The notes under the pieces were generated by a model. That model was not told the origin of the DNA. It saw only the letters and a program-made list of their open reading frames with translations, and did not search any database. Below, piece by piece: positions 3,590 to 63,399 of a stretch of 64,000 bases of DNA; position 1 is the stretch's first letter; every line of letters starts with the position of its first letter. The stretch covers positions 76,448,001 through 76,512,000 of the forward strand of contig NC_086097.1 in the NCBI RefSeq assembly GCF_963921235.1, read 5' to 3'. Source of the DNA: Mobula hypostoma. Taxonomy: Eukaryota. Both the position numbers and the translations under genes were made by a program.

Positions 3590-3975
3590 TTCCATTGTAG
3601 TAATATTAAAATAAGAATGGATAATCTAGTAATACCAGATTAGAGAGGCTTATCTAAGAGTTGGAAAAACAGAAAGGAAACATATGTGAGGTGTAGCATA
3701 AATTATTACATTGAGATTAATCAAGGACAGTCAGGATAGATTTGTGAAACAAGCCATTTCATCAACTTGGTTGAATTTTTGAGGTGATAAGAAGACTCAA
3801 TATCGGCAGATGATTTGATGTGATCTATATCAATAATGGGCAACTTTTAGACAATGCTGCAGACAGCTGACTAGTCAGAAAAGTGAAAGTCTATGGGATC
3901 AAACGAAAGAGGGCAACATGAATGCAAAAGTTATTAGTGGCAGGAAGGAAAACAATGTTCAAGAGGCATTTTGGG
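3590..3975 (+). mobile_element. Old CR1 LINE RT fragment
   Basis: Degenerate match to the SQHGFVK / NLIEFFEEVT / VDVIY segment seen in the younger CR1 copies. Confidence 0.5.
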
Positions 3976-4189
3976 TTGAATTAATCTGACTTAAATGTGC
4001 ACGAAATGTAATATGACGCATTTTATATATGAAACAAGAAGGAAAAACTGAATTCCCAGTATATACCTCTTCTTAAAACAAAATAATGAAGCTTAAAGTT
4101 CAATGTAAGAGCATTGCTGAGACCTCCACTTTGATTAAACTCTCTACCATCACAATCTCCCAACACCTTCACCTTCCCTGAAGGACCTC

Positions 4190-4755
4190 AGAGCAAGATT
4201 GTTTTATCAGAGGGACAATCACAAGGAAAGTGCACCTGCTTCTTTACTTTCTTGGGAGGTTAAAAGGTTCAGCTTATCATAGAACACTAACAAACTTCTT
4301 CAGATGTACCACTGAAAGTTTCTTGACTAGTTGCATCATGGTCTGGTATGGCAATTCGAAAGCAAGGGGACAAAAGAAGCTGCAGTGTGCAGTGGACTCT
4401 GCCCAACACATCACAGGCATATCCCTAACGACCACTGATAGTGACCACAGGAAGCTCTGCATCAAGAAGGCAAGATCTATTATCAAAGATCTCTTCAAAC
4501 ACTCAGTTCTTAATCCAACCAGCAAAACTATAATAACTACAGTTTAGCAACAGTATGAGTACTTTGATATGAAAGTGAACTTTGTTTTTTTTGTACTAAT
4601 TAGTTTCTTGTAGATTTGTACATAGTTTAAGTTTAATTTATGCTGTTCTTGTGAATGCTGCTAATATGGTGCTGTATGCCTGTGATGGTCCTGAAAGTTT
4701 TTGATTGTACCTGTACCTATACATATAACAGTAAACCTTGACTTTTGACTTTGAG
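4190..4755 (+). mobile_element. Rex1/Babar-like LINE 3' fragment
   Basis: ORF 4230-4547 contains LTNFFRCTTESFLTSCIMVWYGN..KKLQ. Tail (CTTGA)n. Confidence 0.6.
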
Positions 4756-5329
4756 GAGAAGCACTACAGACATCTTTCCTTGCCAGCAATACATTCCACT
4801 GATCTCACCAGAGGGAAGGAGACAGTCTGATCTACAATGTGAAATCTAAACTAGTCAAACCAAGTGAACTATATTACAGATAGATTGGCTGCATTCCTAT
4901 CATTTAGTGCTGTTTCCTGGGTTCAGGCACTTCCAAAGCTGGATTGAGGACAATGCTTTACTTTCACTAATATGAGACTGTTTTGACTTCTCCACTTCAA
5001 ACTTAACTAAATGAGATACAATTGTTGGAGAACTTCAGAAACCAGATGATATTTTTTATCTATTGGACAGCACTAATAAAAAGTATGACAAACGATACTC
5101 AACAGATAAACTAGATCATTATTCATATCAACCTGTAATATTAATTTAGCTATTCTCTCCTCATAGCCCCTGCCTGATTTTTTGTTCATTCTGAGTATTC
5201 TCCCCTTGGTTTCAGGTTCCCATAACACCTCTGACCTGAATTTTACATCCCCTCTCTTTAACTTCCTTCATTAATCTATTTACCGGATGGCCCACTAAGA
5301 ATTGAAATCACCAGAGCAACACTAGTCTC

Positions 5330-5540
5330 ACCCAATTTGAGATATTCTTTGTCTTATCATTTCTTCCCCACCCTCTCTGCAATTAAAAACCTGCTCATTT
5401 TCTTGATTTTCCAGTTCTGATGAAGAGTCTTCAACCAAACGCATGCACTGTTTCCCTATCCAAAGATTCTGCCTCAGTTCCCACATGTTCCAGCATTCTG
5501 TTTTTATTTCAGATTTCCACAATCTGCATGCTTTTTTTGT
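5330..5540 (+). mobile_element. Degenerate Penelope-like terminal remnant with decayed hammerhead core
   Basis: ccagttCTGATGAagagtc.. followed by ccagcattctgtttt..ttccacaatctgca, similar to the termini of the younger copies. Confidence 0.45.
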
Positions 5541-5669: not shown

Positions 5670-8600
5670 GAGTTCTTCAAAGTTTCCTTAATCAATACAT
5701 GGAGGTCCCAACTAAAGAGGGTGTGATACCAGATCTCCTGTTAGGGAATGAGATAGGGCAGGTGACAAAAGTTTGTCGGGGAACACTTTGCATCTAGAGA
5801 TCATGATGCCATTAGTTTCAAGATAATTATGGAAAAGGACAGGTCTGGTCCTCAGGTTGAAATTCTAAGTTTGAGAAATGCCAATTTTGATGATGGAAAA
5901 AAAAAAGAATCTGTAAAGTGTAGATTGCCCCATCCTCCCACTACCCTACCAGGGGTAGGGTTCTTCTTATCCTCACCTACCACCCCAGCAGCCTCCATGT
6001 CCATGACATAGTTCTCTGGAACTTCTGCCATCTCCAACGGGATCCCACCACCAAGCACATCTTTCCCTCCCTCCCTCCCCAACTTTCTGCTGTCCACAGG
6101 GATTACTCCTAATGTGACTCCCTTGTCCATTCAGCCCTCCCTACTGATCTCCCTCCTGGCACTTATCCTTGCAAGCGGAACAAGTGCTATGCCTGCCCCT
6201 TCACCTCCTCCCTCACTACCAGTCAGGGCCCTAAACAGTCCTTCCAGGTGAAGCAACACTTCACTTGTGTCCGGTGCTCCCAGTGTGGCCTCCTGTATAT
6301 CAGTGAGGCCAGGTGTAGATTCCCTCTGTCACCTTATCTCTTTGACTGCCCATTGCCTCCCTCTGGTGCTCCTTCCCCCCTTTTCTATCTTCCATGGCCT
6401 TCTGTTCTCTCATATTGGACTCCCCCTTCTCCAGCCCTGCGTCTCTTTCACCAATCAGCCTCCCAGCTCTTTACATCATCCCTCCCCCTCCCAGTTTCAC
6501 CCATCACCTTGTATTTTTCTCTCCCCTCCTCCACCTTTTAAATCTACTCCTCATCTTTTTTCTCCAGTCCTGCCGAAGGGGCTTGGCCCAAAATGTCAAC
6601 TGTACCTTTTTTTCCGTAAATGCTGCCTGACCTGCCGAGTTCCTCCAGCATTTTGTGTGTGTAAGTGCAGACTGGGCCAAGCTGTTTTTTGGCAAAGGTG
6701 TTCTTGGTAAGTGGGAGGCCTTCAAAAGTAAAATTTTGAGAGACTGGAGTGTGTATATTCCTGTCAGAATAAAAGGCAAGGACAACAAATTTAGGGAACT
6801 TTGGTCTTCAAGAGATTTTGAGGCCTGGTTAAGAAGAAGGTGGTGCATAGCAGGTAATGGCAGGAAGGAACAAAGGAGGTATTTGAGGAGTATAAGAAAT
6901 GTAAGAGAACACTTAAGAAAGAAATCAAGAGGGCTAGAAAGCATGGGATTGCTCTAGCAGATAAGGTGAAGGAGAATCCCAAAGGCTCCAAAAGACTTTA
7001 AGAGCAAAAGGGCTGCAAGGGACAAAATTAGTCCTCTGCAAGATCTATGTGTGGAGATGAAACAGATGGGGGAGACCTTAAATAGATTTTTTGCCACTGT
7101 ATTTCCTTGGGAGATAAATACAGAATCTATAGAAGAAAGGAAAAGCAGCAGCGAGGTCATGGACTGTATATGGATTATGGAGGAGGGAGTGTTTGCTGTC
7201 TTGAGGCAAATTGGGGTGGATACTGCAGGTCCCCAGAACCTGACAAGGTGTTCCCCAAGACCCTACAGGAGGTTAGTGCAGAAATTGCAGGGTCCCTAGC
7301 AGAGATATTTAAAATGTTACTAGTCATGAGTGAGGTGCCAGTTGATTGGAGGATAACTAATTTTGTTCCATTAGGAAAGGCTCTAAGAATAATCGGGGAA
7401 ATTATAGGCTGGTAATCCTAACATCAGTAGTGGGGAAGTAATTGAAAGGTATTCTAAGGGACCAGATATGTAAGTATTTGGATAGACAGAGACTGATTAG
7501 GGAAAGTCAAACACACGGCTTTGTGCATGGTAGGTTGTATCTAACCAATCTTATAGAGTTTTTTGAGGAAGTTACCAGGAAACTTGATGAAGACAAGGCA
7601 GCGGAAATTGTCTACATGGACATTAGCAAGGCCTTTGACAAAGTACCACATAGAAGGTTGGTCAAGAAGGATCAGTTGCTTGGCATTCAAGATGAGGTAG
7701 CAATTCAGATTAGACACTGACTTCATGGGAGAAGTCAGATAGAGCAGGCAGATAGTTGCCTCCTTGACTGGAGGCCTGTGATGAGTGGTGCGCCACAGGG
7801 ATCAGTGCTGGGTCCATTGTTGTTTGTTATCTATATCAACGATTTGAAGGATAATATAGTGAACTGAATCAGCAAATTTGTGGATGACACCAAGACTAGG
7901 GTGTTGTGAGAAAGACTATCAAAGCAGGCAGCAGGATCTGGATCAGCTGGAAAAATTGACAGAATAATGGCAGATGGAATTTAAAGCAGACAAGTGTGAA
8001 GTGATATTTTGGGAGAACAAACCAGACTAGGACTTACACAGTGAATGGTAGGGCACTGAGGAGTGGAATAGAACAGAGGGAAATGGGAATACAAATCCAT
8101 AAGTCCTCGAAATTGGTGTCACTGGCAAACAAAGTCATAAAGAAAGCTTTTGGCACATTGGCCTTCATAAATCGAAGTATTGAGTACAGGAGTTGGGATG
8201 TTAGGTTGAAGTTGTATAAGACATTGGTGAGGGCTAATCTGGAGTATTGTATACAGTTTTGGTCACCTACCTACAGGAAAGATGTCAATAAGACTGAAAG
8301 AGTGCAGAGAGAAGTGCAAGAATGTTGCTGAGACTTGAGAATTTGAGTTATAAGGAAAGATTCAATAGGTTAGGACTTCATTCCAAAGAGCACAGGAGAA
8401 TGGGGGAAGATTTGATAGAGGTATATGAAAAGATGAGGTGTATAGATAGGGTAAGCGAAAACAGTCTTTTGCCACTGAGGTTGGGTGAACCAGAACTAGA
8501 AGTCCTGGGTTAAGGATAAAAGGTGAAATGTTTAAGGGTAACATGAGGGAGAACATCTTCATTCAGACGGTGGTGAGTGTGGAATGATTTGCCAGTGGAA

Positions 8601-20450: not shown

Positions 20451-21649
20451 TTCGGTAGCCTATGACAAGATTATTCAGACCAAATAGTCTGTGCTGGTGA
20501 TAATGTCCTATATTAGCATCCTCTTACTGTCTATTGTCAAGATTTATTTCAGAAATTATAACAAATTTTCCTGGTTTATATCAGAACTGCCCAAACCTAA
20601 TGCAAGTCCACCATTCTGTAAAGTTAATTCTGGATTTCTCTCTCTAAATGTCAGGGCTGCTGCACATTTTTAACATTTTATATCAGTTTCATTACAGATT
20701 CCCAACATCTGAAGTGCTGGCATCTCACAGTTCGGACTCTGATTTTTTTTTATCCCTTCTCTTCCCTTTTCATTCACTTCTCCCTTTTTAAACTTCCTCA
20801 ATTTTCAACATCACTTCTGATACTGAGCATCTTTGTGTCTCCACAAACTTTCCTGGCTTTTTCTTCTAATCTGCAACTTGAAAAAAAAAGTTTGATTTCT
20901 ATTTTTCTTGGTTCTTTTGAACCAATAACTTTATTTCACTCTTCACAGATGACACTTTATCTGTTGAGCAGTTTGAAGATTTACTGCATTTTTAAAAGAA
21001 AGTTATATTCCCCTTTTTGCTTGCCTAGCTTCCACTATAATGCATTGATGTTGGTAGCCTCTACAGCAGTAAGCTCCATAATTTAACTATTTTCTGGGTG
21101 AGAAACAAAAATCCTGAATTCACTATGAGATTTTGTAACGGCCACTTATGGTTCCAGTACAAGTCTCCTTCAAGAGTAAAAGCTGGCTCCAAGTCTATGC
21201 TATAAAACCCTTCACTGTTCTAAAGAGCTCACTGAAAAGAGTTACAGCTTGATAGGCAAAATCTCTGGTGTAGACCATAGTCCCTATAAATCTCTTCTAC
21301 ACTGTCTCCAGAGTATTGTTATCCTTTTCCTAATAAGGGAACCAGAACTAGAAATAATTCTAAATGTGATCAAAAGTCCAATGAATCCTGGTGGAAATGA
21401 ACTCCAGTACATCACTTTCCATTTCTGGCCCTACTAGGTATAGAACAATATTTGATCCTTTAAGTTCTCAATTTCAAACTCTTATTTTTTTGCTCTTTCT
21501 TCCCATTAAATGTAGCACCACACGCTTTCCGACACTAAATTTCATTTTCCCCCTTAACAAGCCTATTCTACAAATGTATCAACAAATATGCAATTGGTCA
21601 GCCTCAATATTAGTAATAATTTCTCACCCCCCATTCACCACCATAACCT

Positions 21650-23085
21650 TCATGCACGCATCCTGAGCTCGTTGACTTCATTAACTTTGCCTTCAACTTT
21701 CACCCTGCCCTCAAGTTTACCTGGTCCATTTCCGACACCTCCCTCCCCTTTCTTGATCTTTCTGTCTCTGTATATGGAGACAGCTTATCTACTGATGTCT
21801 ACTATAAGCCTACAGACTCTCACAGCTACCTGGACTATTCCTCTTCTCACCCTGTCTCTTGCAAAAATGCCATCCCCTTCTCGCGATTCCTCCGTCTCCA
21901 CTGCATCTGCTCTCAGGATGAGGCCTTTCATTCCAGTACGAAGGAGATGTCCTCATTTTTTAAAGAAAGGGGCTTCCCTTCCTCCACCATCAACTCTGCT
22001 CTCAAACGCATCTCTCCTATATCACGCACATCAGCTCTCACCCCTTCCTCCCGCCACCCCACTAGGGATAGGGTTCCTCTTGTCCTCACCTACCACCCCA
22101 CCAGCCTCCAGGTCCAACATATTATTGTCCGTAACTTCCTCCACCTCCAATGGGATCCCACCACTAAGAACATCTTTCCTCCCCCCGCCCTCTGCTTTCC
22201 ACAGGGATCGCTCCCTACGCGACTCCCTTGTCCATTCGTCCCCCCCATCCCTTCTCACCGATCTCCCTACCGGCACTTATCCTTGTAAGCGGAACAAGTG
22301 CTACACATGCCCTTACACTTCCTCCCTCACCACCATTCAGAGCCCCAAACAGTCCTTCCAGGTGAGGCGACACTTCACCTGTGAGTTGGCTGGGGTGATA
22401 TACTGCTCTTGGTGCTCTCGGTGCGGCCTTCAATATATTGGCGAGACCCGACGCAGGCTGGGAGACAATTTCACTGAACACCTACGCTCTGTCCACCAGA
22501 GAAAGCAGGATCTCCCAGTGGCCACACATTTTAATTCCACGTCCTTTTCCCATTCTGATATGTCTATCTATGGCCTCCTCTACTGTCAAGATGAAGCCAC
22601 ACTCAGGTTGGAGGAACAACACCTTATATTCTGTCTGGGTAGCCTCCAACATGATGGCATGAACATTGACTTCTCTAACTTGCGTTAATGCCCCACCTCC
22701 CCTTCATACCCCATCCATTACTCATTTATTTTTTATTATTATTAATTTTTTTTCTCTGTCTCCTTTTTCTCCCTCTGTCCCTCTCACTATACTCCTTGCC
22801 CATCCTCTGGGCTTCCCCCCTCCCCCTTTCTTTCTCCCTAGGTCTCCCGTCCCATGATCCTCTCATATCTCTTTTGCCAATCAACTTTCTTGCTCTTGGC
22901 TCCATCCCTCCCGCTCCTGTCTTCTATCATTTTGGATCCCCCCCTCCCCCTCCCACTTTCAAATCTCTTACTATCTCTTCCTTCAGTTAGTCCTGACGAA
23001 GGGTCTCGGCCCGAAATGTCGACTGTACCTCTTCCTAGAGATGCTGCCTGGCCTGCTGCATTCGCTAGCGATTTTTATGTGTGTT
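21650..23085 (+). mobile_element. Penelope-like retroelement (Neptune-type): RT C-terminus, Cys-rich linker, GIY-YIG endonuclease and terminal region
   Basis: Reads ..FHPALKFTWS..LPFLDL..VYYKPTDSHSYL..SSHP. After a frameshift it reads CKRNKCYTC..GVIYCSWCSRCGLQYIGETRRRL..EHL..VATHFN..LRLEEQHLI, with stop at 22688. Confidence 0.9.
22984..23025 (+). ncRNA. Minimal type-I hammerhead ribozyme in Penelope terminus (most intact copy)
   Basis: Stem I AGTC (22989-92) / GACT (23021-24), CTGACGA (22993-99), extra A, stem II GGGT-ctcg-GCCC, GAAA (23013-16), T, then GTC with predicted cut after 23020. Confidence 0.75.
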
Positions 23086-23654: not shown

Positions 23655-24645
23655 AGACACACAAAATGCTGGAGGACGTAGCAGGCCAGGCAGCATCTAT
23701 GGAAAAAAGTACAGTCGATGATTCAGGCCAAGACCCTTCAGCAGGACGGGAGTAAAAAAGATGAGGAGTAGATTTAAAAGGTGAGGGGGGGGGTTAGGGG
23801 AGAGGGAAACACAAGGTGATAGTTGAAATCAGGAGGGGGAGGGATGAAATAAAGAGCTGGGAAGTTGATTGGTGAAAGAGATACAGGGCTGGAGAAGGGG
23901 TGATCTGATAGGGTAGGATAGAAGTCCATGGAAGAAAGAAAAGGGGGGAGGAGCACCAAAGGGAGGCGATGGGTAGGCAAAGAGATGAGGTGAGAGGGGA
24001 AAAAGGAGATGGGTAATACTGGAAGCTCAAAAGATTGATGTTCATGCCATCAGGTTGGAGGCTACCCAGATGGAATATAAGGGGCTGTTCCTCCAACCTG
24101 AGTGTGGCCTCATCGCGAAAGTAGGAGGAGGCTATGGATTGACATATCGGAATGGAAATAGGTGGCTACTGGGAGATCCCACTTCTTTTGGCAACCCATT
24201 TTAATTCTACTTCCCATTCCCATATGTCAATCCATGTCCTCCTCTACTGTTGCGATGAGGCCACACTCAGGTTGGAGGAACAACACCTTATAACCCATCT
24301 GGGTAGCCTCCAACCTGATGGCATGAACATCGATTTCTCAAACTTCCAGTAATGCCCCCTCTCACCTTAACTATCTCCCATCCCCTTTTCCCTGTCTCAC
24401 CTTATGTCCTTGCCTGCCCATCACCTCCCTCTGGTGTTTCTCTCTCTCTCCCCCACCTCCTCCCCTGCCCCCACCCCCGCTACCTTTTAAATCTACTCCT
24501 CTTTTTGCTCCAGATTTGCCTCTTGGCCTGAAATGTTGACTGTAATTATTTTTTCCCATGGATGCTGCCTGGCCTGCTGAGTTCCTCCAGCATTTTGTGC
24601 TTGTTACTTGGATTTCCAGCATCTGCAGATTTTCTCTTGTTTGTG
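23655..24645. mobile_element. Penelope-like fold-back (inverted 3' ends)
   Basis: The minus arm (about 23655-24185) and plus arm (about 24190-24645) both encode EEQ.LI.HLGSLQPDGMNI and end in the shared terminal motif. Confidence 0.85.
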
Positions 24646-25942: not shown

Positions 25943-28810
25943 AACATAGAAACATAGAAAATAGGTGCAGGAGTAGGCCATTCGGCCCTTCGAGCCTGCA
26001 CCGCCATTCAGTATGATCATGGCTGATCATCCAACTCAGAACCCTGCACCAGCCTTCCCTCCATACCCCCTGATCCCTTTAGCCACAAGGGCCATATCTA
26101 ACTCCCTCTTAAATATAGCCAATGAACTGGCCTCAACTGTTTCCTGTGGCAGAGAATTCCACAGATTCACCACTCTCTGTGTGAAGAAGTTTTTCCTAAT
26201 CTCGGTCCTAAAAGGCTTCCCCTTTGTCCTCAAACTGTGACCCCTCGTTCTGGACTTCCCCAACATCGGGAATAATCTTCCAGCATCTAGCCTGTCCAAT
26301 CCCTTTAGAATTTTATACGTTTCAATCAGATCCCCCCTCAAACTTCTAAATTCCAACGAGTATAAGCCTAGTTCATCCAGTCTTTCATCATATGAAAGTC
26401 TTGCCATCCCAGGAATCAATCTGGTGAACCTTCTTTGTACTCCCTCTATGGCAAGGATGTCTTTCCTCAGATTAGGGGACCAAAACTGCACACAATACTC
26501 CAGGTGTGATCTTACCAAGGCCTTGTACAACTGCAGTAGTACCTCCCTGCTCCTGTACTTGAATCTTCTTGCTATAAATGCCAGCATACCATTCGCCTTT
26601 TTCACCGCCTGCTGTACCTGCATGTCCACTTTCAATGACTGGTGTATAATGACACCCAGGTCTCGTTGCACCTCCCCTTTTCCTAATCAGCCACCATTCA
26701 GATAATAATCTGTTTTCCTGTTTTTGCCACCAAAGTGGATAACTTCACATTTATCCACATTAAATTACATCTGCCATGAATTTGCCCACTCACCCAACCT
26801 ATCCAGGTCACTCTGCATCCTCTTAGCATCCTCCTCACAGCTAACACTGCCACCCAGCTTCATGTCATCCGCAAACTTGGAGATGCTGCATTTAATTCCC
26901 TCATCTAAGTCATTAATATATATTGTAAACAACTGGGGTCCCAGCACTGAGCCTTGCGGTACCCCACTAGTCACCGCCTGCCATTCTGAAAAGGTCCTGT
27001 TTATTCCCACTCTTTGCTTCCTGTCTGCTAACCAATTCTCCATCCACATCAATACCTTACCCCCAATACCGTGTGCTTTAAGTTTACACACGAATCTCCT
27101 GTGTGGGACCTTGTCAAAAGCCTTTTGAAAATCCAAATATACCACATCCACTGGTTCTCCCCTATCCACTCTACTAGTTACATCCTCAACAAATTCTATG
27201 AGATTCGTCAGACATGATATTCCTTTCACAAATCCATGCTGACTTTGTCCGATGATTTCACCGCGTTCCAAATGTGCTGTTATCATATCTTTGATAACTG
27301 ACTCTAGCAGTTTCCCCACCACCGATGTTAGGCTAACCAGTCTATAATTCCCTGGTTTCTCTCTCCCTCCTTTTTTAAAAAGTGGAGTTACATTAGCCAC
27401 CCTCCAATCCTCAGGAACTAGTCCAGAATCTAAAGAGTTTTGAAAAATTATCACTAATGCATCCACTATTTCTTGGGCTACTTCCTTAAGCACTCTGGGA
27501 TGCAGACCATCTGGCCCTGGGGATTTATCTGCCTTTAATCCCTTCAATTTACCTAACACCACTTCCCTACTAACATGTATTTCCCTCAGTTCCTCCATCT
27601 CACTGGACCCTCTGTCCCCTACTATTTCCGGAAGATTATTTATGTCCCCCTTAGTGAAGACAGAACCAAAGTAATTATTCAATTGGTCTGCCATGTCCTT
27701 GCTCCCCATAATCAATTCACCTGTTTCTGTCTGTAGGGGACCTACATTTTTCTTAACCAATCTTTTTTCTTTTCATATAATCTATAAAAGCTTTTACAGT
27801 CAGTTTTTATGTTTCCTGCCAGTTTTCTCTCATAATCTTTTTTCCCCTTCCTAATTAAGCCCTTTGTCCTCCTCTGCTGAACTCTGAATTTCTCCCAGTC
27901 CTCAGGTGAGCTACTTTTTCTGGCTAATTTGTATGCTTCTTCTTTGGAATTGATACTATCCCTAATTTCCCTTGTCAGCCACGGGTGCACTACCTTCCTT
28001 GATATATTCTTTTGCCAAACTGGGATGAACAATTGTTGTAGTTCATCCATGCAATCTTTAAATGCTTGCCATTGCATATACACTGTCAACCCTTTAAGTG
28101 TCATTTGCCAGTCTATCTTAGCTAATTCACGTCTCATACTTTCAAAGTTACCCTTCTTTAAGTTCAGAACCTTTGTTTCTGAATTAACTATGTCACTCTC
28201 CATCTTAATGAAGAATTCTACCATATTATGGCCACTCTTACCCAAGGGGCCTCTCACGACAAGATTGCTAATTAACCCTTCCTCATTGTTCAATACCCAG
28301 TCTAGAATAGCCTGCTCTCTAGTTGGTTCCTCGACATGTTGGTTCAAAAAACCCATCCCGCATACATTCCAAGAAATCCTCTTCCTCAGCACCCTTACCA
28401 ATTTGGTTCACTCAATCTACATGTAGATTGAAGTCACCCATTATAACTGCTGTTCCTTTATTGCACACATTTCTAATTTCCTGTTTAATACCATCCCCAA
28501 CCTCACTACTACTGTTAGTTGGCCTGTACACAACTCCCACCAGCGTTTTCTGCCCCTTAGTGTTATGCAGCTCTACCCATATCGATTCCACATCTTCCTG
28601 GCTTATGTCCTTCCTTTCTATTGCGTTAATCTCTTCTCTAACCAGCAACGCCACCCACCTCCTTTTCTTTCATGTCTATCCCTCCTGAATATTGAATATC
28701 CCTGAATGTTGAGCTCCCATCCTTGGTCACCCTGGAGCCATGTCTCTGTGATCCCAACTATATCATATTCATTAATAACAATCTGCACTTTTAATTCATC
28801 CACCTTGTTC
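25943..28810 (-). mobile_element. Young CR1 LINE, ORF2 from the endonuclease to the 3' end, with a few stops and frameshifts
   Basis: DIVGITETWL, VIMGDFN, AILDWVL, SGHNMV, RT with FADD, and a (TTTCTATG)n tail. Confidence 0.95.
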
Positions 28811-29224: not shown

Positions 29225-31770
29225 TCATAAAATCATAGAGCACTACAGAACGGAAACAGGTCCTTTGGCCCATCTAGTCCATGCTGAACTATTATTTTGG
29301 TAGTCCCATCGACCGGCACTTGGGATAGCCCTCTATATCCCTCCCATCCATTCACTTATCCAAACTTCACTTAAATGTTGAATCAAACTCACATCCACCA
29401 TTTCCACTGGCAGTTTGTTCCACACTCTTATTAACCTCTGAGCAAAGAAGTACATCGCCCCACTTGTTCCCCTTAAACATTTCACCTTTCACCCTTAATT
29501 ATGACCTCTAGTTCTAATCTTACCTAACCTCAGTGGGGGAAAAAACTGCTTGCATTTACCCTATCTATAGCACTCATAATTTTGTATACCTCTATCAAAT
29601 CTTCCCCCATTCTCCTGCACTTCAGGGAATAATTCAGCCTTTCCCAATAACGCAGATCCTTAAGTGCTGGCAACATCCTTGAAAATTGTCTCTGTCCTAT
29701 TGACTTTTTTTCCTGTAGCTAGGTAATCAAAATCAAACACAATACTCCAAATTAGGCCTTAACAATGGCTCATAAAACTTCAACACAACATCCCAACTCC
29801 TGTACTCAATACTGTGATTAATGAAGGCCGATGTGCTGAAAGCTCTCTTTACAACTCCATTTACTTGTGACACCACTCTTCAGGAATTATGAATCTGTAT
29901 TCCCAGATTCCCCTATTCTCCAGCACTCCTCAGTGCCCTACCCTGGTTTACCCTCCCAAACTACAACACCTCACACTTGTCTGCATTAATTTCCATCTGC
30001 CATTTTTCAGCCTATTTTTCCAGTTGGTCCATATCCTGCTGAAAACTTTCATAGCCTTCCTCATAGTCCACTACACTCTCAATCTTCGTGTTATCCGCAA
30101 ATTTCCTGATCCAGTTTACCACATTATCATCCAGATTGCTGATGAAATGACAAACTGCAACAGACCCAGCACCAATCCCTGTGGCACTCCACTAGTCACA
30201 GGCCTTCAGTCAGAGAGTCAACCATCTATTACCACTCGCTGGCTTCTCCCATGAAGCCAATGTTGAATCCAATTTACTAACTCAACCTGAATGCCAAGTG
30301 ACTGAAACTTCTTGACCAACCTCCCATGCGGAGCCTTGCTAAAGTCCACGTAGACAACATCCACTGCCTTTCCTTAATAAACTTTCCTGCTAACCTGCTC
30401 AAAAAACTCTAAGTTTGGTTAGACACCACCTACCAATCAGTCCATGCTTATCCAAATACTTATCCAGTCCTTTAGAATACTTTCCAATAACTTAATCCAG
30501 TGGTGACTTCAGGCTCACCAGTGTATAATTTTCTTAAACAACATTAGCCACCCTCCAATCCTTTGGCAGTTCACCAGTGGCTAAGGGTGTTTTAGATATC
30601 TTTGCTAGGGCCCCAGCAATTTCTGCACTAGCCTCTCACAAGGACCAAGGGAACACCCCATGAGGCCCTGGGGACTAATCCACCCTTACTTCTATCAAGA
30701 GAGCAAACACCTCCCCCTCTGTAATTTATATGTGGTCCATGACCTCACTGCTGCTTTGCCTCACTTCTACAGATTGTGACTGTCTTGTGTGTAAATAGAG
30801 ATCCCAAAAAAAAATTAAGATCATCCCCACCTCTTTCAGCTCTATAGATAGATCACCATTTTGACATTCAAGAGGACCTATTTTGTCTCCTTGCTATCCT
30901 TTTGCTCCTAATATATCTGTAGAAGCACTTGGGATTTTACTTCACTTTGTCTGTTAGGGCAACCTCATGCCTTCTTTTAACCTCCCTGATCTCCTCCTTA
31001 AGTGTTCTCTTGCAATTTTATACTCAAACACCTCATTTGTTCCTTGCTGCCTATTTCTGCTACGCACCTCCTCCTCCTTCTTCTTAACCAGGGCCTCAAA
31101 ATCTCTTAAAAAACAACACTAAACCTGTTAAACAACACACATAAAAGTTGCTGGTGAATGCAGCAGGCCAGTCAGCATCTCTAGGACCTTACCTCTTCCT
31201 AGAGATGCTGCCTGGCCTGCTGCGTTCACCAGCAACTTTTATGTGTGTTACTAAACCTGTTATCTTTGCCTCTTATTCTCACAGGAACACACCAACTCTG
31301 TACTCTCACTTTTGTAAGCCTCCCACTTAAAAAGCACATCTTTGCCACAAAACAACCTGTCTCACCCCACACTTGCCACATCCTTTAAAATCTCAACCTG
31401 AGGACCAGATCTATCCTTCTCCATAATTATCTTGAAACTAATGGAATTATGATTAGTAGATCCACTGTGATCCTCTACACCTGCGTCTGTCATCTACCCT
31501 GTCCCATTCCCAAATAGGATATCCACTATTGCACTTTATCTTGCTGTGACCTCTATTTATTGATTAAGAAAACTTCCATGAACATATATGACAAACTCTT
31601 TCCCATCCAACCCATTTACAGTATGGGAGTTCCAGTCAATATGTGGAAAGTTAAGATCACCTACTATCACAGCCTAATGTTTCTTGCAACAGCTGTGCTC
31701 TCTCAAAAAATGTGTTCCTCTAAATCCTGCTGACTATTGGGTGGTCCATAACATAACCTTATTTATGCAG
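29225..31770 (-). mobile_element. CR1 LINE (older, decayed)
   Basis: Recognisable gtgactagtggagtgccacaggga and ctgatgggccaaagg-type segments. Interrupted by the hairpin at 31131. Confidence 0.8.
31131..31249. repeat. 119-bp Penelope-derived fold-back hairpin with 13-bp TSD
   Basis: Arms 31134-31186 and 31197-31249 (53 bp, 2 mismatches). TSD actaaacctgtta at 31118-31130 and 31250-31262. Confidence 0.9.
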
Positions 31771-38059: not shown

Positions 38060-40229
38060 CAGTTCATCCATGCAAGCATTTAAAGATTGCATGGATGAAC
38101 TGCAATGGCAAGCATTTAAAGATTGCATGGATAAACTACAACAATTGTTCATCTCAGTTTGGCAAAAGAATAAACCAGGGAAGGTAGTGCATCCGTGGCT
38201 GACTAGGGAAATTAGGGATAGTATCAATTCCAAAGAAGAAACATACAAATTAGCCAGAAAAAGCGGCTCACCTGAGGACTGGGACAAATTCAAAGTCCAG
38301 CAGAGGAGGACAAAGGGCTTAATTAGGAAAGGGAAAAAAGATTAAGAGAGAAAACTGGCAGGGAACATAAAAATTGAATGTAAAAGCTTTTATAGATTAT
38401 ATGAAAAGAAAAAGATTGGTTAAGACAAATGTAGGTCCCTTACAGTCAGAAACAGGTGAATTGATCATGGGGAACAAGAACATAGCAGACCAATTGAATA
38501 ACTACTTTGGTTCTGTCTTCACTAAGGAGGACATAAATAATCTTCCAGAAATAGTAGGGGACCGAGGGTCTAGTGAGATGGAGGAACTGAGGGAAATACA
38601 TGTTAGTAGGGAAGTGGTGTTAGGTAAATTGAAGGGATTAAAGGCAGATAAATCCCCAGGCCCAGATGGTCTGCATCCCAGAGTGCTTAAGGAAGTGGCC
38701 CAAGAAATAGTGGATGCATTAGTGATAATTTTTCAAAACTCGTTAGATTCTGGACTAGTTCCTGAGGATTGGAGGGTGGCTAATGTAACTCCACTTTTTA
38801 AAAAAGGAGGGAGAGAGAAACCGGGGAATTATAGACCGGTTAGCCTAACATCGGTGGTGGGGAAACTGCTGGAGTCAGTTATCAAAGATATGATAACAGC
38901 ACATTTGGAACGCGGTGAAATCATCGGACAAAGTCAGCATGGATTTATGAAAGGAAAATCATGTCCGACGAATCCCATAGAAATTTTTGAGGATGTAACT
39001 AGTAGAGTGGATAGGGGAGAACTAGTGGATGTGGTGTATTTGGATTTTCAAAAGTCTTTTGACAAGATCCCACACAGGAGATTAGTGTGCAAACTTAAAG
39101 CACACAGTATTGGGGGTATGGTATTGATGTGGATAGAGAATTGGTTGGCAGACAGGAAGCAAAGAGTGGGAATAAACGGAATCTTTTCAGAATGGCAGAC
39201 AGTGACTAGTGGGGTACCGCAAGGCTCAGTGCTGGGACCCCAGTTGTTTACAATATATATTAATGACTTAGACGAGGGAATTAAATGCAGCATCTCCAAG
39301 TTTGCGGATGACACGAAGCTAGGCGGCAGTGTTAGCTATGAACAGGATGCTAAGAGTATGCAGGGTGACTTGGATAGGTTAGGTGAGTGGGCAAATTCAT
39401 GGCAGATGCAATTTAATATGGATAAATGTGAGGTTATCCACTTTGGTGGCAAGAACAGGAAAACAGATTATCTGAACGGTGGCCGATTAGGAAAAGGGGA
39501 GGTGCGACGAGACCTGGGTGTCATTATACACCAGTCATTGAAAGTGGGCACGCAGGTACAGCAGGCAGTGAAAAAGGCGAATGGTATGCTGGCGTTCACA
39601 GCAAGAGGATTCGAGTACAGGAGCAGGGAGGTACTACTGCAGTTGTACAAGGCCTTGGTGAGACCACACCTAGAGTATTGTGTGCAGTTTTGGTCCCCTA
39701 ATCTGAGGAAAGACATTCTTGCCATAGAGGGAGTACAAAGAAGGTTCACCAGATTAATTCCTGGGATGGCAGGACTTTCATACGATGAAAGACTGGATCG
39801 ACTAGGCTTATACTCGCTGGAATTTAGAAGATTGAGGGGGGATCTGATTGAAACATATAAAATTCTAAAGGGATTGGACAGGCTAGATGCAGGAAGATTG
39901 TTCCCGACGTTGGGGAAGTCCAGAATGAGGGGTCACATTTTAAGGATAAAGGGGAAGCCTTTTAGGACTGAGATGAGGAAAAACTTCTTCACACAGAGAG
40001 TGGTGAATCTGTGGAATTTTCTGCTACAGAAAACAGCTGAGGCCAGTTCATTGGCTATATTTAAGAGGGAGTTAGATATGGCCCTTGTGGCTAAAGGGAT
40101 CAGGGGGTATGGAGGGAAGGCAGGTACAGGGTTCTGAGTTGGATGATTAGCCATGATCATACTGAATGGCGGTGCAGGCTCGAAGGGCCGAATGGCCTAC
40201 TCCTGCACCTATATTCTATGTTTCTATGT
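38060..40229 (+). mobile_element. Young 5'-truncated CR1 LINE with an open 587-aa RT ORF (38374-40137)
   Basis: Uninterrupted RT with PQGSVLGP and KFADDTK. Near-identical to 25943-28080 in the opposite orientation. ttctatgt repeat tail. Confidence 0.95.
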
Positions 40230-40315
40230 ATCTATGGAGGGAAATGGACAGTCAACATTTCAGACTGAGGAGGCCTGATGAAGGTTCTCAGCCCAAAACA
40301 TTAACTGCCTATTCC
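40230..40315. mobile_element. Remainder of an old Penelope fold-back split by the CR1 (other part at about 38020-38059)
   Basis: ..aggtcaggcag plus atctatggagggaaatggacagtc rebuilds the terminal consensus. Degenerate CTGATGA..CAAAACATT core at about 40275-40305. Confidence 0.6.
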
Positions 40316-40883
40316 TCAATCACTTTGTATCACAATCAATTGAACTGTTTCTTTGTTCAGACTGGTAAGAGAAGGGGTGAGAGTAGACATGTGGGAAACA
40401 AAGGAGATGCATGTGCGGGCTCCATCAACTTCAGTAGAAGAGAAGGTATTTTCCCAAGGAAGTATATTTCAGAGGTCCAAGGGTAGAAAGCTTCACCTGG
40501 AGAACACATTTGGCAGAGACAATGAGAGAATGGAAGATTGTCTTTACTGGAGGTATAGTTAGGTATAGGTGGATGGAGCTATAGTTAAAGTAGCCATGAG
40601 ATTCCCCAGGTTCATAGTAGATATCAATGGATAGCTTGTGTTCTGAGTAAGAAACAGAAAACCAGAAAAGGAAGAGTCAGATTTAAACAGTTTCTTTCAA
40701 AATCAGAGGAAATCCCAAGACTTTAAAGGCAAATAAATAGTGTAGATAAAGGCAGGTACACAAGATCCTACAGATGACAAAGAAATACCACCAGATAATC
40801 TCCTTTAGAGACACTGAACTTCCCAGATGAGGCCATCCTAGCATTTCAACACTGCAAGAGGAAAACAGTAGAGCTGTTCCTGA

Positions 40884-41115
40884 CATGAGGAAATCTACAG
40901 ATGCTGGAAATTCAAGCAACACACACAAAAAATGCTAGTGAACGCAGCAGGCCAGGCAGCATCTATAGGAAGCGGTACAATCGGTTTTTCGGGCCGGGAC
41001 CCTTCGTCAGGACTAACTGAAAGAAGAGATAGTAAGAGATTCGTCGACTGTACCTCTTCCTAAAGATGCTGCTTTGCTTGTCGCGTTCCACCAGCATTTT
41101 GTATGTGTGAAACCC
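40884..41115. repeat. Penelope-derived fold-back of about 230 bp
   Basis: Minus arm carries a hammerhead remnant (40978-41019). Plus arm starts cgtcgactg at 41042. Duplication gttcctga at 40876-40883 / 41116-41123. Confidence 0.8.
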
Positions 41116-47294: not shown

Positions 47295-47573
47295 CTTCCC
47301 CCCCCCCCCTTTTCCTTCTCCCTGGGCCTCCTGTCCCATGATCCTCTCATATCCCTTTTGCCAATCAACTGTCCAGCTCTTGGCTCCATCCCTCCCCCTC
47401 CTGTCTTCTCCTATCATTTTGGATCTCCCCCTCCCCCTCCCACATTCAAATCTCTTACTAGCTCTTCCTTCAGTTAGTCCTGACAAAGGGTCTCGGCCCG
47501 AAACGTCGACTGTATCTCTTCCTAGAGATGCTGCCTGGCCTACTGCGTTCATCAGCAACTTTGATGTGTGTGG
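47295..47573 (+). mobile_element. Penelope-like terminal fragment with 10-bp TSD
   Basis: TSD cttggagtat at 47285-47294 and 47574-47583. Near-identical to 22810-23085. Confidence 0.9.
47471..47512 (+). ncRNA. Hammerhead ribozyme copy with G8-to-A core mutation
   Basis: agtcCTGACAAagggtctcggccCGAAACGTCgact. The palindromic ACGT stem III is intact. Confidence 0.55.
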
Positions 47574-48709: not shown

Positions 48710-50110
48710 CACAACAAGAGAAAATCTGCAGATGCTGGAAATCCAAGACAGACAGACGCAAAAGTGCTGGAGGAACTCAACAGGCCGGGCAGCGTCTATG
48801 AAAAAGAGTAAACAGTCGATGTTTCAGACTGAGACCCTTCATCAGAACTGGAGAGAAAAGATGAGAAGTCGGAGTAAGAATATGGGGGGAGGGGAAGAAG
48901 AAATTTGTTAGTAGGTGATAGGTGAAACCGGGAGAGGGGGAGGGGTGAAATAAAGAGCTGGGACGTTGATTGGTGAAAGAGATAAAGGGCTGGAGAAGGG
49001 GGAATCTGATCGGAGAGGACAAAGGCCATGGAAGAAAGGGAAGGGGGAGGAGCACCAGAGGGAGGTGATGGGTAGGTGAAAAAATAAGATAAGAGAGGGA
49101 AATGGAAATGGGGAATGGTGAAGGAATGTGGGGGGAGCATTACCAGAAGTTCGGCAAATCGATGTTCATGCCATCATGTTGGAGGCTACCCAGATGGATT
49201 ATAAGGTGTTGCTCCTCTAACCTGAGTGTGGCCTCATTGTGGCAGTAGAGGAGGCCATGGACTGATGTGTCAGAATGGGAATGGAAAGTGGAATTAAAAT
49301 GGGTGGCCACTGGGAGATCCCACTTTTCCTGGTGGACAGAGCATAGGTGCTTGGCAAAGCAGTCTCCCAATCTACGTCGGGTCTCACCGACATACAGGAG
49401 GCCACACCGGGAGCACTGCATACAGTAGATGACACCAACAGATTCACAGGGGAGGTGTCGACTCACCTGGAAGGACAGTTCGGGGCCCTGAATGGTAGTA
49501 AGGGAGGAGGAGCACCTACGCTTAATCCACCAGAAAAAGCAGGATCTCCCAGTGGCCACCCATTTTAACTTCACTTCCCATTCCCACACGTCAGTCCGTG
49601 GCTTCCTCTGCTACCATAATGAGGCCACACTCGGGTTGAAGGAGCAGCATCTTATATTCTGTTTGGGTAGCTTCCAACCTGATGGCATGAGAAACAATTT
49701 TTTGAAATTCTGGTAATGGTCCCCCTACCCCACCGCCTTCATGATTCCCCATTCCCATTTCCCTCTCTCACTTTATCTGTTACCTGCCCGTTACCCCCCT
49801 TCTGGTGCTCCTCCCCCTTCCCTTTCTTCCATGGATTTCTGTCCTCTCCTATCAGATTCCCCCTTCTCCAGTTTTTTACCTCTTTTACCAACCAACTTCC
49901 CAGCTTCTTTCTTCACCCCTCCTCCTCTTGCAGTCTCACCTATCACTTACTACCTTGTATTTCTTCCTCCCCTCCCCCCACTCTCTTACTCTGACTTCTT
50001 ATCTTTTTTCCAGTTCTGGATGAAGGGTCTCAACCCAAAGCATTGACTGTTTACTCTTTTCCATAGATGCTGCCTGGCCTGTTGAATTCTTCCAGCATTT
50101 TGTGTGTGCT
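48710..50110. mobile_element. Penelope-like fold-back of about 1.4 kb
   Basis: Minus arm 48710-49505 (ORF 49140-49589 with GVIYC..LLYVGET) and plus arm about 49510-50110. Confidence 0.85.
48813..48850 (-). ncRNA. Hammerhead ribozyme copy in the FMN1-sense orientation
   Basis: Minus strand: CAGTT-CTGATGA-A-GGGTCTCAGTCT-GAAAC-ATC^GACTG. Core intact, but stem II is wobble-rich and stem III has a C-A mismatch. Confidence 0.55.
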
Positions 50111-53321: not shown

Positions 53322-55303
53322 TAAGCAACATACACAAAATGCTGGTGGAATGCAGCAGGCCAGACAGCATCCATAAGAAGCACAGTTGACGTCTCGGGCC
53401 AAGACCCTTCGTCAGGACTAACTGAAAGAAGAGATAGTAAGAGATTTGAAAGTGGGAGGGGGAGGGGGAGATCCGAAATGATAGGAGAAGACAGGAGGGG
53501 GAGAGATGAAACTAGGAGCTGGAAAGTTAATTGGCAAAAGGGATACGAGGCTGGAGAAGGTAGAGGATCATGGGACGGGAGGCCTAGGGAGAAAGAAAGG
53601 GGGAGGGGAGCACCGGAGGAAGATGGAGAGCAGGCAAGGAGTTATTGTAAGAGGGACAGAGAGAGAAAAAAAGGAAAAAAAAATAAATAAACAAATAAAT
53701 AAATAAGGGATGGGCTAAGAAGGGGAGAAGGGGCATTAATGGAAGTTAGAGAAGTCAATGTTCATGCCAACAGGTTGGAGGCTACCCAGACGGAATACAA
53801 GGCGTTTTCCTCCAACCTGAGTGTGGCTTCATCTTGACAGTAGAGGAGGCCGTGGATAGACATATCAGAATGGGAATGGGACTTGGAATTAAAATGTGTG
53901 GTCACTGGGAGATCCTGCTTTCTCTGGCGGACAGAGCGTAGGTGTTCAACTTGCAAAAATGTCTACCTGGGTTGACTATTCCTCTTCCCACCCTGTCTCT
54001 TGCAAAAATGCCATTCCCTTCTCGCAATTCCTCCGTCTCTGCCACATCTGCTCTCAGGATGAGGCCTTTCATTCCAGGACGAAGGAGATGCCATCCTTTT
54101 TTAAAGAAAGAGGCTTCCCTTCCTCCACCATCAACTCTGCTCTCAAATGCATCTCTCCTATTTCACACACATCTGCTCTCACCCCATCCTCCCGCCACCC
54201 CACTAGGGATAGGGCTCCCCTTGTCCTCACCTACTACCCCATCAGCCTCCTGGTCCAACATACAATTCTCTGTAAGTTCCGCCACCTCCAACGGGATCCC
54301 ACCACCAAGCACGTCTTCCCCTCCCACCCCCGCTTTCTGCTTTCCGCAGGGATCACTCCCTACGCGACTCCCTTGTCCATTCGTCCCCCCCATCCCTCCC
54401 CACTGATCTCCCTCCTGGCGCTTATCCTTGTAAGCGGAACAAGTGCTACACATGCCCTTACACATCCTCCCTCACCACCATTCAGGGCCCCAGACAGTCC
54501 TTCCAGGTGAGGTGACACTTCACCTATGAGTCGGCTGGGGTGATATACTGCGTCTGGTGCTCCCGCTGTGGCCTTCTATATATTGGCGAGACCCGATGCA
54601 GACTGGGAGACCATTTCACTGAACACCTATACTCTGTCCACCAGAAAAAGCAGGATCTCCCAGTGGTCACACATTTTAATTCCACGTCCCATTCCCATTC
54701 TGATATGTCCATCCATGGCCTCCTCTACTGTCAAGATGAAGCCACACTCAGGTAAGAGGAACAACACCTTATATTCCGTCTGGGTAGCCTCCAACCTGAT
54801 GGCATGAACACTGACTTCTCTAACTTCTGTTAATGCCCCTCCTCGCCTTCTTACCCTAGCCTTTATTTATTTATTTGTTTATTTATTTATTTATTTATTT
54901 ATTTTCCTCCCCTTTTTTCTCTCTCTGTTCCTCTCACAATAACTCCTTGCCTGCTCTCCATCTTCCTCTGGTGCTCCAACCCCCTTTCTTTCTCCCTAGG
55001 CCTCCCATCTCATGATCCTCTCCCTTCTTCAGTCTTGTATCCCTTTTGCCAATCAACTTTCCAGCTCTTAGCTTTATCCCTCCCTCTCTTGTCTTCTCCT
55101 ATCATTTCAGATCTCCCCCTCCCCCTCCCACTTTCAAATCTCTTACTATCTCTTCTTTCAGTTAGTCCTGACAAAGGGTCTCGGCCCAAAACGTCAACAG
55201 TCCTTCTTCCTAAGGATGCTGTCTGGCCTGCTGCGTTCCACCAGCATTTCGTGTGTGTTGCTTGAATTTTCAGCATCTGTACATTTCCTCGTGTTTGCGT
55301 TTT
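53322..55303. mobile_element. Penelope-like fold-back of about 2 kb with 11-bp TSD
   Basis: Minus arm 53322-53948 and plus arm about 53962-55303. TSD taaatctaatt at 53311-53321 / 55304-55314. Hammerhead remnants at 53383-53424 (-) and 55159-55200 (+). Confidence 0.9.
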
Positions 55304-56299: not shown

Positions 56300-56451
56300 G
56301 CAACAGAAATTCTGCAGATGCTGGAAAACCAAGCAACACACACAAAATGCTGGAGGAGCTCAGCAGGCCAGGCAGCATCTATGGACTGCTGAACGGTCTC
56401 GGCCCAAAACATCGACTGTACTCTTTTCCATAGATACTGCCTGGCTTGCTG
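56300..56451. repeat. Penelope-derived fold-back of about 150 bp
   Basis: cagcaggccaggcagcatctatgga pairs with tccatagatactgcctggcttgctg. TSD atttttcctacaa / attttccctacaa (12 of 13 match). Confidence 0.8.
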
Positions 56452-56642
56452 ATTTTCCCTACAAACCTATTTTGAGATTTTATTATATACCCAACATCAT
56501 GTGTTGATTGTGCTTGTCAAAATCGTCAATCATTTATATTTTCAGAACTCAGACCATTTAAATTTAAACTAGTAACTGTCTGTTAATATTTGATAATATA
56601 ACATAGGCTCTCAAAATATAAGAGTAAAGGGTTTGAACATAC

Positions 56643-62435: not shown

Positions 62436-63399
62436 AATGTAGACCACTTTTCACACCTCAGGATCAACTCTAAACAAATACAAACATAAGTGCTTGAAAA
62501 TCCAAACCTCAACACCAGCACAACATCATAAAATAGAACTTCCATTTCAAGTTCTACCACTAAGTTTATCAGGTGAACAGAGGAAATTGTTCAAGAATGT
62601 GCTGAAAGCTTCTATTAAAAGATACAAGATCTCCTCTAATTCATAGGAATCCTTGGCCAATGGCAATGGAGGAGGAGCACATGTAATGATATTAACAATC
62701 TCAAGTCTATTCACTTGGAGCTCAAGGAAGCTCTGTGTTAAATGGCAGAAGAGCCACTTTCCCAAAATACCCACTTACTTTCCCAGAAAATCACTGACTG
62801 AACCATCTATGATAGTATACTCGACTCACACATTGGTCTCACTGACCCCATCAAAACCTCCAGAATATGCATGGAAATAAATCATTCTGAATAATAAATA
62901 TTTTCCAAGAGAGAAAAAAAACACTTCTTAGTTAAGGGCTGCCATTACAGCAACACAGTCATATCTTAGGGTTGGGCATTCTCAAAGGCCCAGAAACAGC
63001 AGTAGTTGATGCAGACCAACTTGCAGCTAAATAACAGTGTCTCATGATGGACAAACAGTTCAGAGGAGGCCTTACCTGGGCAAAAGGTATAATTCTGTAT
63101 TATGCCAAAATACCAGTGTCTAAGGAGATTCAGGACATGATGGCAGGTGGAGCACATTAATGCACTTAAAGTGGTAGGGAAATGCAGTATATTTCCACTA
63201 TTTACACCAACCCACATTAATCTTAACTTTTATTCTCCTCAAAATCTCAACAACATCCTCTACTACCCCATTTCCACAGTTTCTGCCACTCATCTTCCAT
63301 TCTGATGAGAGGCCATAGACCCAAAACTCTGTTTCTCTTCCATAAATGCTACGTAACTTGCTGAAGGCAAGACAATGCCTAAATTTCATTTGGAGTTTG

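What the first reader, a model, noticed from the sequence alone, without database searches (positions are those of the whole stretch)
22984..23025. Family-wide minimal hammerhead ribozyme in the Penelope-like element termini
Seen: a short motif recurs at about 5413, 6565, 22984, 23712(-), 40275, 40978(-), 47471, 48813(-), 50011, 53383(-), 55159 and 56386. Its consensus is AGTC CTGA(C/T)GA A GGGTCTCGGCCC GAAA C GTC GACT. This folds as a type-I hammerhead: stem I AGUC/GACU, CUGANGA and GAAA cores, stem II GGGU/GCCC, and a GUC cleavage triplet. Stem III is loop-less and palindromic (ACGU), so it could only form in a dimer. Known: Penelope-like elements carry such minimal dimer-dependent hammerheads in their pseudo-LTRs, and an extra A after A9 is tolerated in some natural hammerheads. 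Inference: this is a high-copy chondrichthyan ribozyme-retroelement system, with about a dozen copies in 64 kb, that standard annotation would miss. Most copies are damaged at CpG positions.
Basis: partly seen in the sequence, partly recalled or inferred. Interest (0 to 1): 0.8.

Follow-up and report, generated by a model that had tools for sequence, protein, structure and literature searches.

The report
Minimal hammerhead in Penelope retrotransposon ends
The flagged bases are a real copy of the tiny hammerhead ribozyme motif already known from the end repeats of Penelope-like jumping genes, here in a family with an estimated half-million mostly decayed copies; it likely cuts RNA only weakly, and this lone copy is probably inactive, so the catch is correct but largely ordinary.

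Summary
Confirmed but known. 22989-23024 is a minimal type-I hammerhead in the 3' pseudo-LTR of a 5'-truncated Neptune-type Penelope-like element (PLE). All 12 named sites are homologous, but only 2 of 12 keep core and both helices. The genome has 9,811 exact 28-mer matches and an estimated 520,000 remnants. A full-length copy carries one motif per pLTR, 3.5 kb apart. This architecture was described in 2014, fish Neptune PLEs included (PMC4209133). Two helix pairs change on both sides in the oldest subfamily, supporting the fold. Evidence for efficient cutting is weak: no pile-up of copy 5' ends at the cut site (0 of 32), 35 of 71 long copies read through it, 21 of 35 young copies have G.U at 10.1-11.1, and one subfamily spread with A6C. 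Copy 5' ends pile up at the motif's front edge, a likely RNA start. The scan has reported this family and that pile-up many times, in this genome and others. No cleavage or RNA data. New member of a known kind; interest 0.2.

The parts
21648..23085 (+). 5'-truncated copy of a Neptune-type Penelope-like element (last ~1.4 kb of a 3.5-kb unit)
   Evidence: 89% identical to full-length copy L064 positions 3782-5212
21650..22688 (+). Broken ORF remnant: end of RT/thumb, CX4CxxC linker, GIY-YIG endonuclease; frameshift near 22182-22192
   Evidence: translation, tblastn in two pieces at 88-89%, Pfam GIY-YIG below cut-off, E 0.06
22689..23085 (+). 3' untranslated part of the pseudo-LTR, ending at the short 3' end (about +65 after the cut site, no tail)
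22975..22986 (+). Pyrimidine strand predicted to pair with the core and the start of helix II (alternative, off fold) in the young subfamily
   Evidence: folds; not seen in subfamily F2 (n=6)
22989..23024 (+). Minimal type-I hammerhead: helix I 22989-92/23021-24, core 22993-99, extra A 23000, helix II 23001-04/23009-12, GAAA 23013-16, predicted cut 23020|23021; C15.2>U at 23017
5406..5507 (+). Old, heavily decayed copy
6554..6662 (+). Copy with A6C and G12A
23656..23758 (-). Copy with A6C and A15.1U
24521..24605 (+). Fragment lacking the CUGA half of the core
40270..40316 (+). Decayed copy, G12A, both helices broken
40919..41031 (-). Young copy with U16.1C, head-to-head with a fragment at 41042-41109
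47461..47570 (+). Young copy with G8A (CpG change)
48759..48860 (-). Older-subfamily copy, core and helices kept, G16.2A
50001..50108 (+). Copy with one inserted base, G12A and A15.1G
53326..53436 (-). Young copy with A14G; inverted partner of the copy ending at 55261
55147..55260 (+). Young copy with G8A and G12A, followed by the tail
56380..56462 (+). Copy truncated at the front edge, A6C and G12A, in a fold-back
63286..63364 (+).

Best explanation
The motif is the minimal hammerhead of the pseudo-LTR of a very abundant Neptune-type Penelope-like retrotransposon, and it likely works as a weak, conditional self-cleaver that would need a partner copy and probably the element's own protein, while the RNA that gets copied into the genome is likely mostly uncut. 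Shown: a full-length unit has one motif in each pLTR, 3.5 kb apart, the first 140 nt before the likely start codon; copies end about 65 or 100 nt past the cut site and carry the motif intact. Inferred: transcription starts at the motif's front edge (about -45 to -30) and reads through to the second motif and tail; reverse transcription starts inside the RNA at about +65 or +100, as shown for the anole element PAc; the downstream motif must stay uncut (or be re-ligated) for that. Cutting would be a late or side step: trimming tandem read-through RNA or making unit circles. The 22984 copy is a dead solo end with a weakened helix III and is probably inactive.
For: Element anatomy: (RT with DKG and YIDD, CX4CxxC linker, GIY-YIG; pLTR-ORF-pLTR in L064). 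Fold under past selection: 2.1-1.1 is C-G in 14 and U-A in 11 of 27 rows, 10.1-11.1 is G-C 9, A-U 9, G.U 9; 0 of 500 shuffles reach the score. Old copies picked by downstream flank alone show U2.1 in 9 of 13 and A1.1 in 8 of 13. Uncut template: 35 of 71 ORF-start-bearing copies run through the upstream cut site and only 3 of 40 nearby ends lie within 2 nt of it, p = 0.17; 0 of 32 solo young copies start within 5 nt of the cut. Front-edge start: 11 of 16 solo ends between -300 and +19 lie at -50 to -11. Two 3' ends: 26 of 51 at +56 to +73 and 20 of 51 at +94 to +118. Weak catalyst: the monomer is predicted to bury the core in a helix with the cut triplet; U11.1 in 21 of 35 young copies; A6C subfamily, a change reported to slow cleavage below 0.1 per min in a phage hammerhead (PMC3088659, passage). 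Literature: monomers inactive, dimers weak (PMC4209133); PAc hammerhead protein-assisted and dispensable for insertion in vitro (PMC11167929).
Against: No cleavage assay and no usable RNA data. The covariation is about two historical events, rows were chosen for intact helices or by a pattern fixing the core and part of helix II, and the 3' partners 1.1 and 11.1 sit in CpG contexts; a search for further helix I variants found only decay, with no excess of paired combinations (16 of 30 U-A, as the marginals predict). Core conservation over other motif positions is not significant (p = 0.08). In long copies the fall-off upstream of -36 is not significant (11 of 35 against 3 of 24, p = 0.12). The -50 to -11 window was chosen after seeing the data. 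The 47-nt motif folds no better than shuffles (z -0.85). A re-ligated circle would leave the same intact junction as an uncut RNA.
Confidence: 0.6

Rival explanations
1. [quoted passage not shown]
For: Two motifs 3.5 kb apart; partial tandem copies with an upstream pLTR of variable length; ligation would restore the intact site, so read-through is expected.
Against: A circle has no 5' end, so it does not explain copy ends piling up at the front edge; no excess of ends at the cut from unligated molecules; lineages with A6C or G.U 10.1-11.1 amplified well; PAc inserts without hammerhead activity in vitro (PMC11167929).
Confidence: 0.2
2. Catalytically vestigial motif: in this lineage the stretch is kept as a promoter, RNA-start or protein-binding element, and no longer cleaves.
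For: Core and helix II changes fixed in successful subfamilies; the block just downstream is as conserved as the motif; 5' ends mark the front edge, where an initiator-like YYAN sequence overlaps helix I (initiator consensus recalled, not from a call); Naiad PLEs thrive without hammerheads (bioRxiv 10.1101/2021.04.23.441226, passages).
Against: Four subfamily majority lines keep all 11 core bases while helix pairs change on both sides; A6C is a natural variant that still cleaves, favouring Mn2+ (PMC7151607, abstract); related PLE motifs cleave as dimers or with protein (PMC4209133, PMC11167929).
Confidence: 0.17
3. Chance resemblance: a conserved repeat end that happens to match a short descriptor.
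For: The motif is short, folds no better than shuffles and has no Rfam match; one ancestral match multiplied by transposition counts once.
Against: It sits where PLE hammerheads are published, with traits not needed by a descriptor (extra base after A9, G10.1-C11.1, palindromic 15.2-16.2), and shows double-sided changes.
Confidence: 0.03

Closest known systems
Minimal hammerheads (min-HHR) of metazoan PLE pLTRs, including fish Xena, Poseidon and Neptune (Cervera and de la Pena 2014, PMC4209133; parts 1-2 of 4 read)
   Same: Type I, no loop 3, palindromic 15.2-16.2, extra base between 9 and 10.1, short helix I, one per pLTR about 3 kb apart, mostly solo motifs on truncated copies, and opposite-strand pairs.
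   Different: Helix II is 4 bp rather than the 7-8 bp of the schistosome families; copy number is higher (about 100,000 descriptor-level copies extrapolated from 24 in 800 kb, against 4,000 and 9,000 reported for coelacanth and Xenopus with a different descriptor); subfamilies with G.U or A-U at 10.1-11.1 and with A6C.
PAc, Poseidon element of Anolis (Frangieh et al. 2024, PMC11167929; parts 1-2 of 4 read)
   Same: Hammerhead at the pLTR-ORF junction, two internal 3' ends 30-40 nt apart (tail), template apparently uncut.
   Different: Here the likely ATG lies 140 nt after the cut site and both 3' ends fall in the 5' UTR; in PAc the ORF starts inside the ribozyme. Neptune-type linker here.
Non-LTR retrozymes (Li et al. 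2026, bioRxiv 10.64898/2026.07.22.740005; parts 1 and 3 of 5 and passages read)
   Same: Type I hammerheads derived from PLE pLTRs; reported in the one chondrichthyan genome sampled, mean unit 363 bp; a rare 358-bp tandem deletion derivative exists here.
   Different: The window copies are dispersed truncated PLE ends, not tandem arrays.
A6C hammerhead of phage Bcep176 (PMC3088659 passage; PMC7151607 abstract)
   Same: The same core change in one subfamily.
   Different: That is a single, fully helical ribozyme; here it is a minimal motif in at least 1,537 genomic copies.

Membership tests
PLE minimal hammerhead (min-HHR) | Core CUGANGA, GAAA and UH in type-I order with helices I and II | tested here: met
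   22984 copy: 11 of 11 core bases, 4 of 4 pairs in each helix; 24 of 35 young copies. The A6C subfamily departs from the core.
PLE minimal hammerhead (min-HHR) | No loop 3; palindromic 15.2-16.2 | tested here: met
   C15.2 in 30 and G16.2 in 29 of 35 young copies; the 22984 copy itself has U15.2.
PLE minimal hammerhead (min-HHR) | Extra nucleotide between 9 and 10.1 | tested here: met
   A in 35 of 35 young copies
PLE minimal hammerhead (min-HHR) | G10.1-C11.1 pair | tested here: inconclusive
   Met in the 22984 copy; C11.1 in only 12 of 35 young copies (U in 21); A-U in 9 of 12 old copies.
PLE minimal hammerhead (min-HHR) | Located in both pLTRs of a PLE | tested here: met
   L064: motifs at 1609 and 5120, ORF between. 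Oldest subfamily: no ORF remnant within 1.5 kb in 12 of 12 loci; linked only by the shared downstream block.
PLE minimal hammerhead (min-HHR) | Self-cleavage as a dimer or with protein | not testable with these tools
   No assay; genomic ends show no trace of cutting.
EN+ Penelope-like element, Neptune type | Single ORF with RT (DKG motif) and C-terminal GIY-YIG | tested here: met
   798-aa open frame in L153; Pfam RVT_1 E 3e-6 and GIY-YIG E 0.002, both under their cut-offs; atlas look-alikes share these domains.
EN+ Penelope-like element, Neptune type | CX2-5CxxC linker before the endonuclease (shared with Nematis) | tested here: met
   CX4CxxC in the window translation; definition from the Craig et al. 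passages.
EN+ Penelope-like element, Neptune type | Partial tandems, inverted copies, optional 30-40 bp tail | tested here: met
EN+ Penelope-like element, Neptune type | RT phylogeny places it in Neptune rather than Nematis | not tested
   No reference set was at hand; no tree built.
Non-LTR retrozyme | Non-coding tandem units each with a hammerhead | tested here: not met
   Window copies are dispersed ends of a coding element; only a rare derivative elsewhere is tandem.

The most novel reading that the evidence does not exclude
The two identical motifs of one transcript are set differently by context: the RNA begins at the first bases of helix I, so the 5' motif can fold, whereas the 3' motif is switched off by the pyrimidine strand just upstream, which keeps the internal priming sites at +65/+100 attached. 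[quoted passage not shown]
Probability: 0.25. Interest if true: 0.5.

Novelty: new member of a known kind. Interest (0 to 1): 0.2.

Why it matters
The class is known, so the catch itself adds a host lineage and a very large copy number. Its use is as test material: the role of hammerheads in PLE transposition is stated as unclear in the literature read, and this family offers subfamilies with different core and helix variants and many mappable insertion ends. Those ends already argue that the copied RNA is uncut and begins at the motif's front edge.

Tried and rejected
Rfam scan: no hammerhead family; 7 sub-threshold matches, the mir-4529 one being a fold-back of this element's end at 31135-31248. 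Sequencing runs: no RNA holder listed; four runs laid were contigs of guessed or unknown kind, so starts, ends, strand and level could not be read, and none of the joints shown had GT-AG ends (8 joints not shown). Pile-up of 5' ends at the cut site: looked for, not found. Further hammerhead families with other helix I pairs: 730 matches, the 100 listed look like decayed or truncated members of the same families; 30 tabulated, no covariation. Within-family core-versus-flank comparison (2 of 315 against 55 of 595) rejected as a test because flank columns include subfamily polymorphisms. Upstream off-switch: clear in young copies (25 of 152 tested; mean helix II probability 0.46-0.58 falling to 0.15-0.18, shuffled flank 0.40), absent in F2 (n=6), inconclusive in F3 (n=3), none tested in F4. 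Cofolding gives an extended inactive duplex and cannot represent the active dimer. A splice acceptor after the cut site was considered; no donor was evident by eye and no RNA support. Literature searches: hammerhead+Penelope+ribozyme (38 papers, 25 listed), hammerhead ribozyme+shark+Penelope (1), Penelope+Chondrichthyes+ribozyme (3), Penelope+pLTR+transcription start+hammerhead (3, 2 listed), hammerhead+A6C+core (5); no listed title or passage read describes this family or the front-edge pile-up. The main supplementary file of PMC4209133 could not be searched, bioRxiv supplements are closed, and repeat databases were not available, so the family may be catalogued already.

Full report
Observation. 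The window carries the motif as described at 22989-23024, and all 12 named sites are homologous. It is far beyond chance: 26 descriptor hits in 864 kb against 0 in each of 20 shuffles, and 9,811 exact 28-mer matches in the 3.48-Gb genome against 0 for the reversed control. In 120 ten-kb stretches taken at round coordinates of large contigs (1.2 Mb, not a formal random sample) 181 copies cover the motif, which extrapolates to about 520,000 (bootstrap 440,000-600,000), and 4.8% of the sample aligns to the element. Quality is poor in the window: only 2 of 12 copies keep all 11 core bases and both helices, and the flagged copy has U for C at 15.2. Rfam does not detect the motif.

What it belongs to. 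The flagged copy ends a 5'-truncated element at 21648-23085 whose broken ORF encodes a CX4CxxC linker and a GIY-YIG endonuclease. Longer copies give an open frame of up to 798 aa with RT and GIY-YIG. L064 is full length: pLTR 1345-1702, ORF, pLTR 4857-5214, with a motif in each pLTR 3.5 kb apart and the likely ATG 140 nt after the first cut site. Young copies end at about +65 (26 of 51) or about +100 (20 of 51) after the cut site, the PLE tail signature that marks two internal start sites of reverse transcription in the anole element (PMC11167929). This is an EN+ PLE of Neptune type by its linker; no tree was built. The host class was not tested.

Is the fold real? Grouping 168 sampled copies by sequence downstream of the motif gave four groups (57, 72, 13 and 6 copies; 20 unassigned or ambiguous) whose majority lines keep the core. 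The oldest group has U-A in place of C-G at 2.1-1.1 (U in 9 of 13, A in 8 of 13). Twelve better-kept old copies found by pattern have A-U at 10.1-11.1 in 9 of 12. On 27 distinct natural rows the named structure is 92% paired, with double-sided changes beyond all 500 shuffles. Caveats: these are about two events, rows were selected for intact helices or by a core-fixing pattern, two of the changed partners lie in CpG contexts, a search for other helix I variants found none, and core positions are not significantly more constant than other motif positions (p = 0.08).

Does it cut? Nothing here shows that. Folding predicts that the monomer keeps helices I and II but buries G5-G8 in a helix with the cut triplet; the helix III duplex is -1.7 kcal/mol for the intact 4-mer and +2.6 for the flagged copy. 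Successful lineages carry weakening changes: U11.1 in 21 of 35 young copies, far above the 10% CpG decay rate, and A6C in 11 of 20 copies with one linker type against 5 of 55 with another (p = 7e-5), with 1,537 A6C matches genome-wide against 834 for A6G plus A6T. A6C is a known natural variant with low activity (PMC3088659) and a Mn2+ preference (PMC7151607). If cut RNA were copied, 5' ends should gather at the cut. They do not: among 71 copies bearing the ORF start (79 loci, 8 dropped as duplicates or tandem partners; 5 of 57 pattern matches not fetched), 35 run through the site and 3 of 40 nearby ends lie within 2 nt of it (p = 0.17); among 32 solo young copies (18 fold-back members set aside) none starts within 5 nt. 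Instead 11 of 16 solo ends between -300 and +19 lie at -50 to -11, the front edge (p = 3e-7, window chosen after inspection). In long copies the matching drop upstream of -36 is not significant (p = 0.12). I saw this pile-up, before consulting the scan's notes, which report the same repeatedly; those notes are not independent support.

Mechanism. Most likely (0.6) transcription starts in the pLTR at the motif's front edge (inferred; a start site in the pLTR is reported for Penelope and Chlamys, PMC8557442), reads through ORF, second motif and tail, and is reverse-transcribed from +65 or +100 while uncut; the ribozyme is weak and conditional, acting late or on the side. In young copies the flank upstream of -40 is predicted to pair with the core and lower helix formation, which would protect the 3' motif, but this was not seen in an older group. 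Rivals are the cut-and-circle model (0.2), a catalytically vestigial motif (0.17) and chance (0.03).

Comparison and verdict. Cervera and de la Pena (PMC4209133) describe these traits and report such motifs in fish Neptune, Poseidon and Xena elements, with monomers inactive and dimers weak. A 2026 preprint includes one chondrichthyan genome among hosts of PLE-derived hammerhead repeats. My searches found no paper on this family, but one supplement and repeat databases were not seen. The finding is a correct identification of a new member of a known kind. The extras worth keeping are the copy number, the front-edge ends and the A6C and U11.1 lineages. Interest 0.2.

Noticed in passing
L198, L199 (junction 1901 to 1544 in L064 coordinates); similar junction in L195: A 358-bp internally deleted unit holding the motif occurs in short tandems; the exact junction has 6 matches at 4 loci on 3 contigs. 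Retrozyme-like; no GT-AG ends, a short microhomology lies at both sides.
   Followed up: partly
window 23025-23040 and all subfamilies: A pyrimidine tract ending in YAG follows the cut site by about 18 nt in every subfamily, like a splice acceptor, then an ATG in a conserved block. No donor or RNA support found.
   Followed up: partly
window 22982-22988: An initiator-like sequence (consensus recalled) overlaps the front edge where 5' ends pile up; older groups have a similar sequence at helix I.
   Followed up: no
window 23018-23023: Positions 16.2 to 1.3 form a six-base palindrome in young copies, and a different six-base palindrome in the oldest group; it drives a strong inactive dimer in cofolding.
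   Followed up: partly
window 31135-31248, 40919-41109, 56334-56462: Short head-to-head fold-back insertions of the element's end; the first gives a spurious sub-threshold Rfam microRNA match.
   Followed up: partly
window 25944-28076 and 38101-40229: An inverted pair of about 2.1 kb at 94-95% identity, 10 kb apart, related to other repeats in the window; probably two copies of another retroelement family.
   Followed up: no
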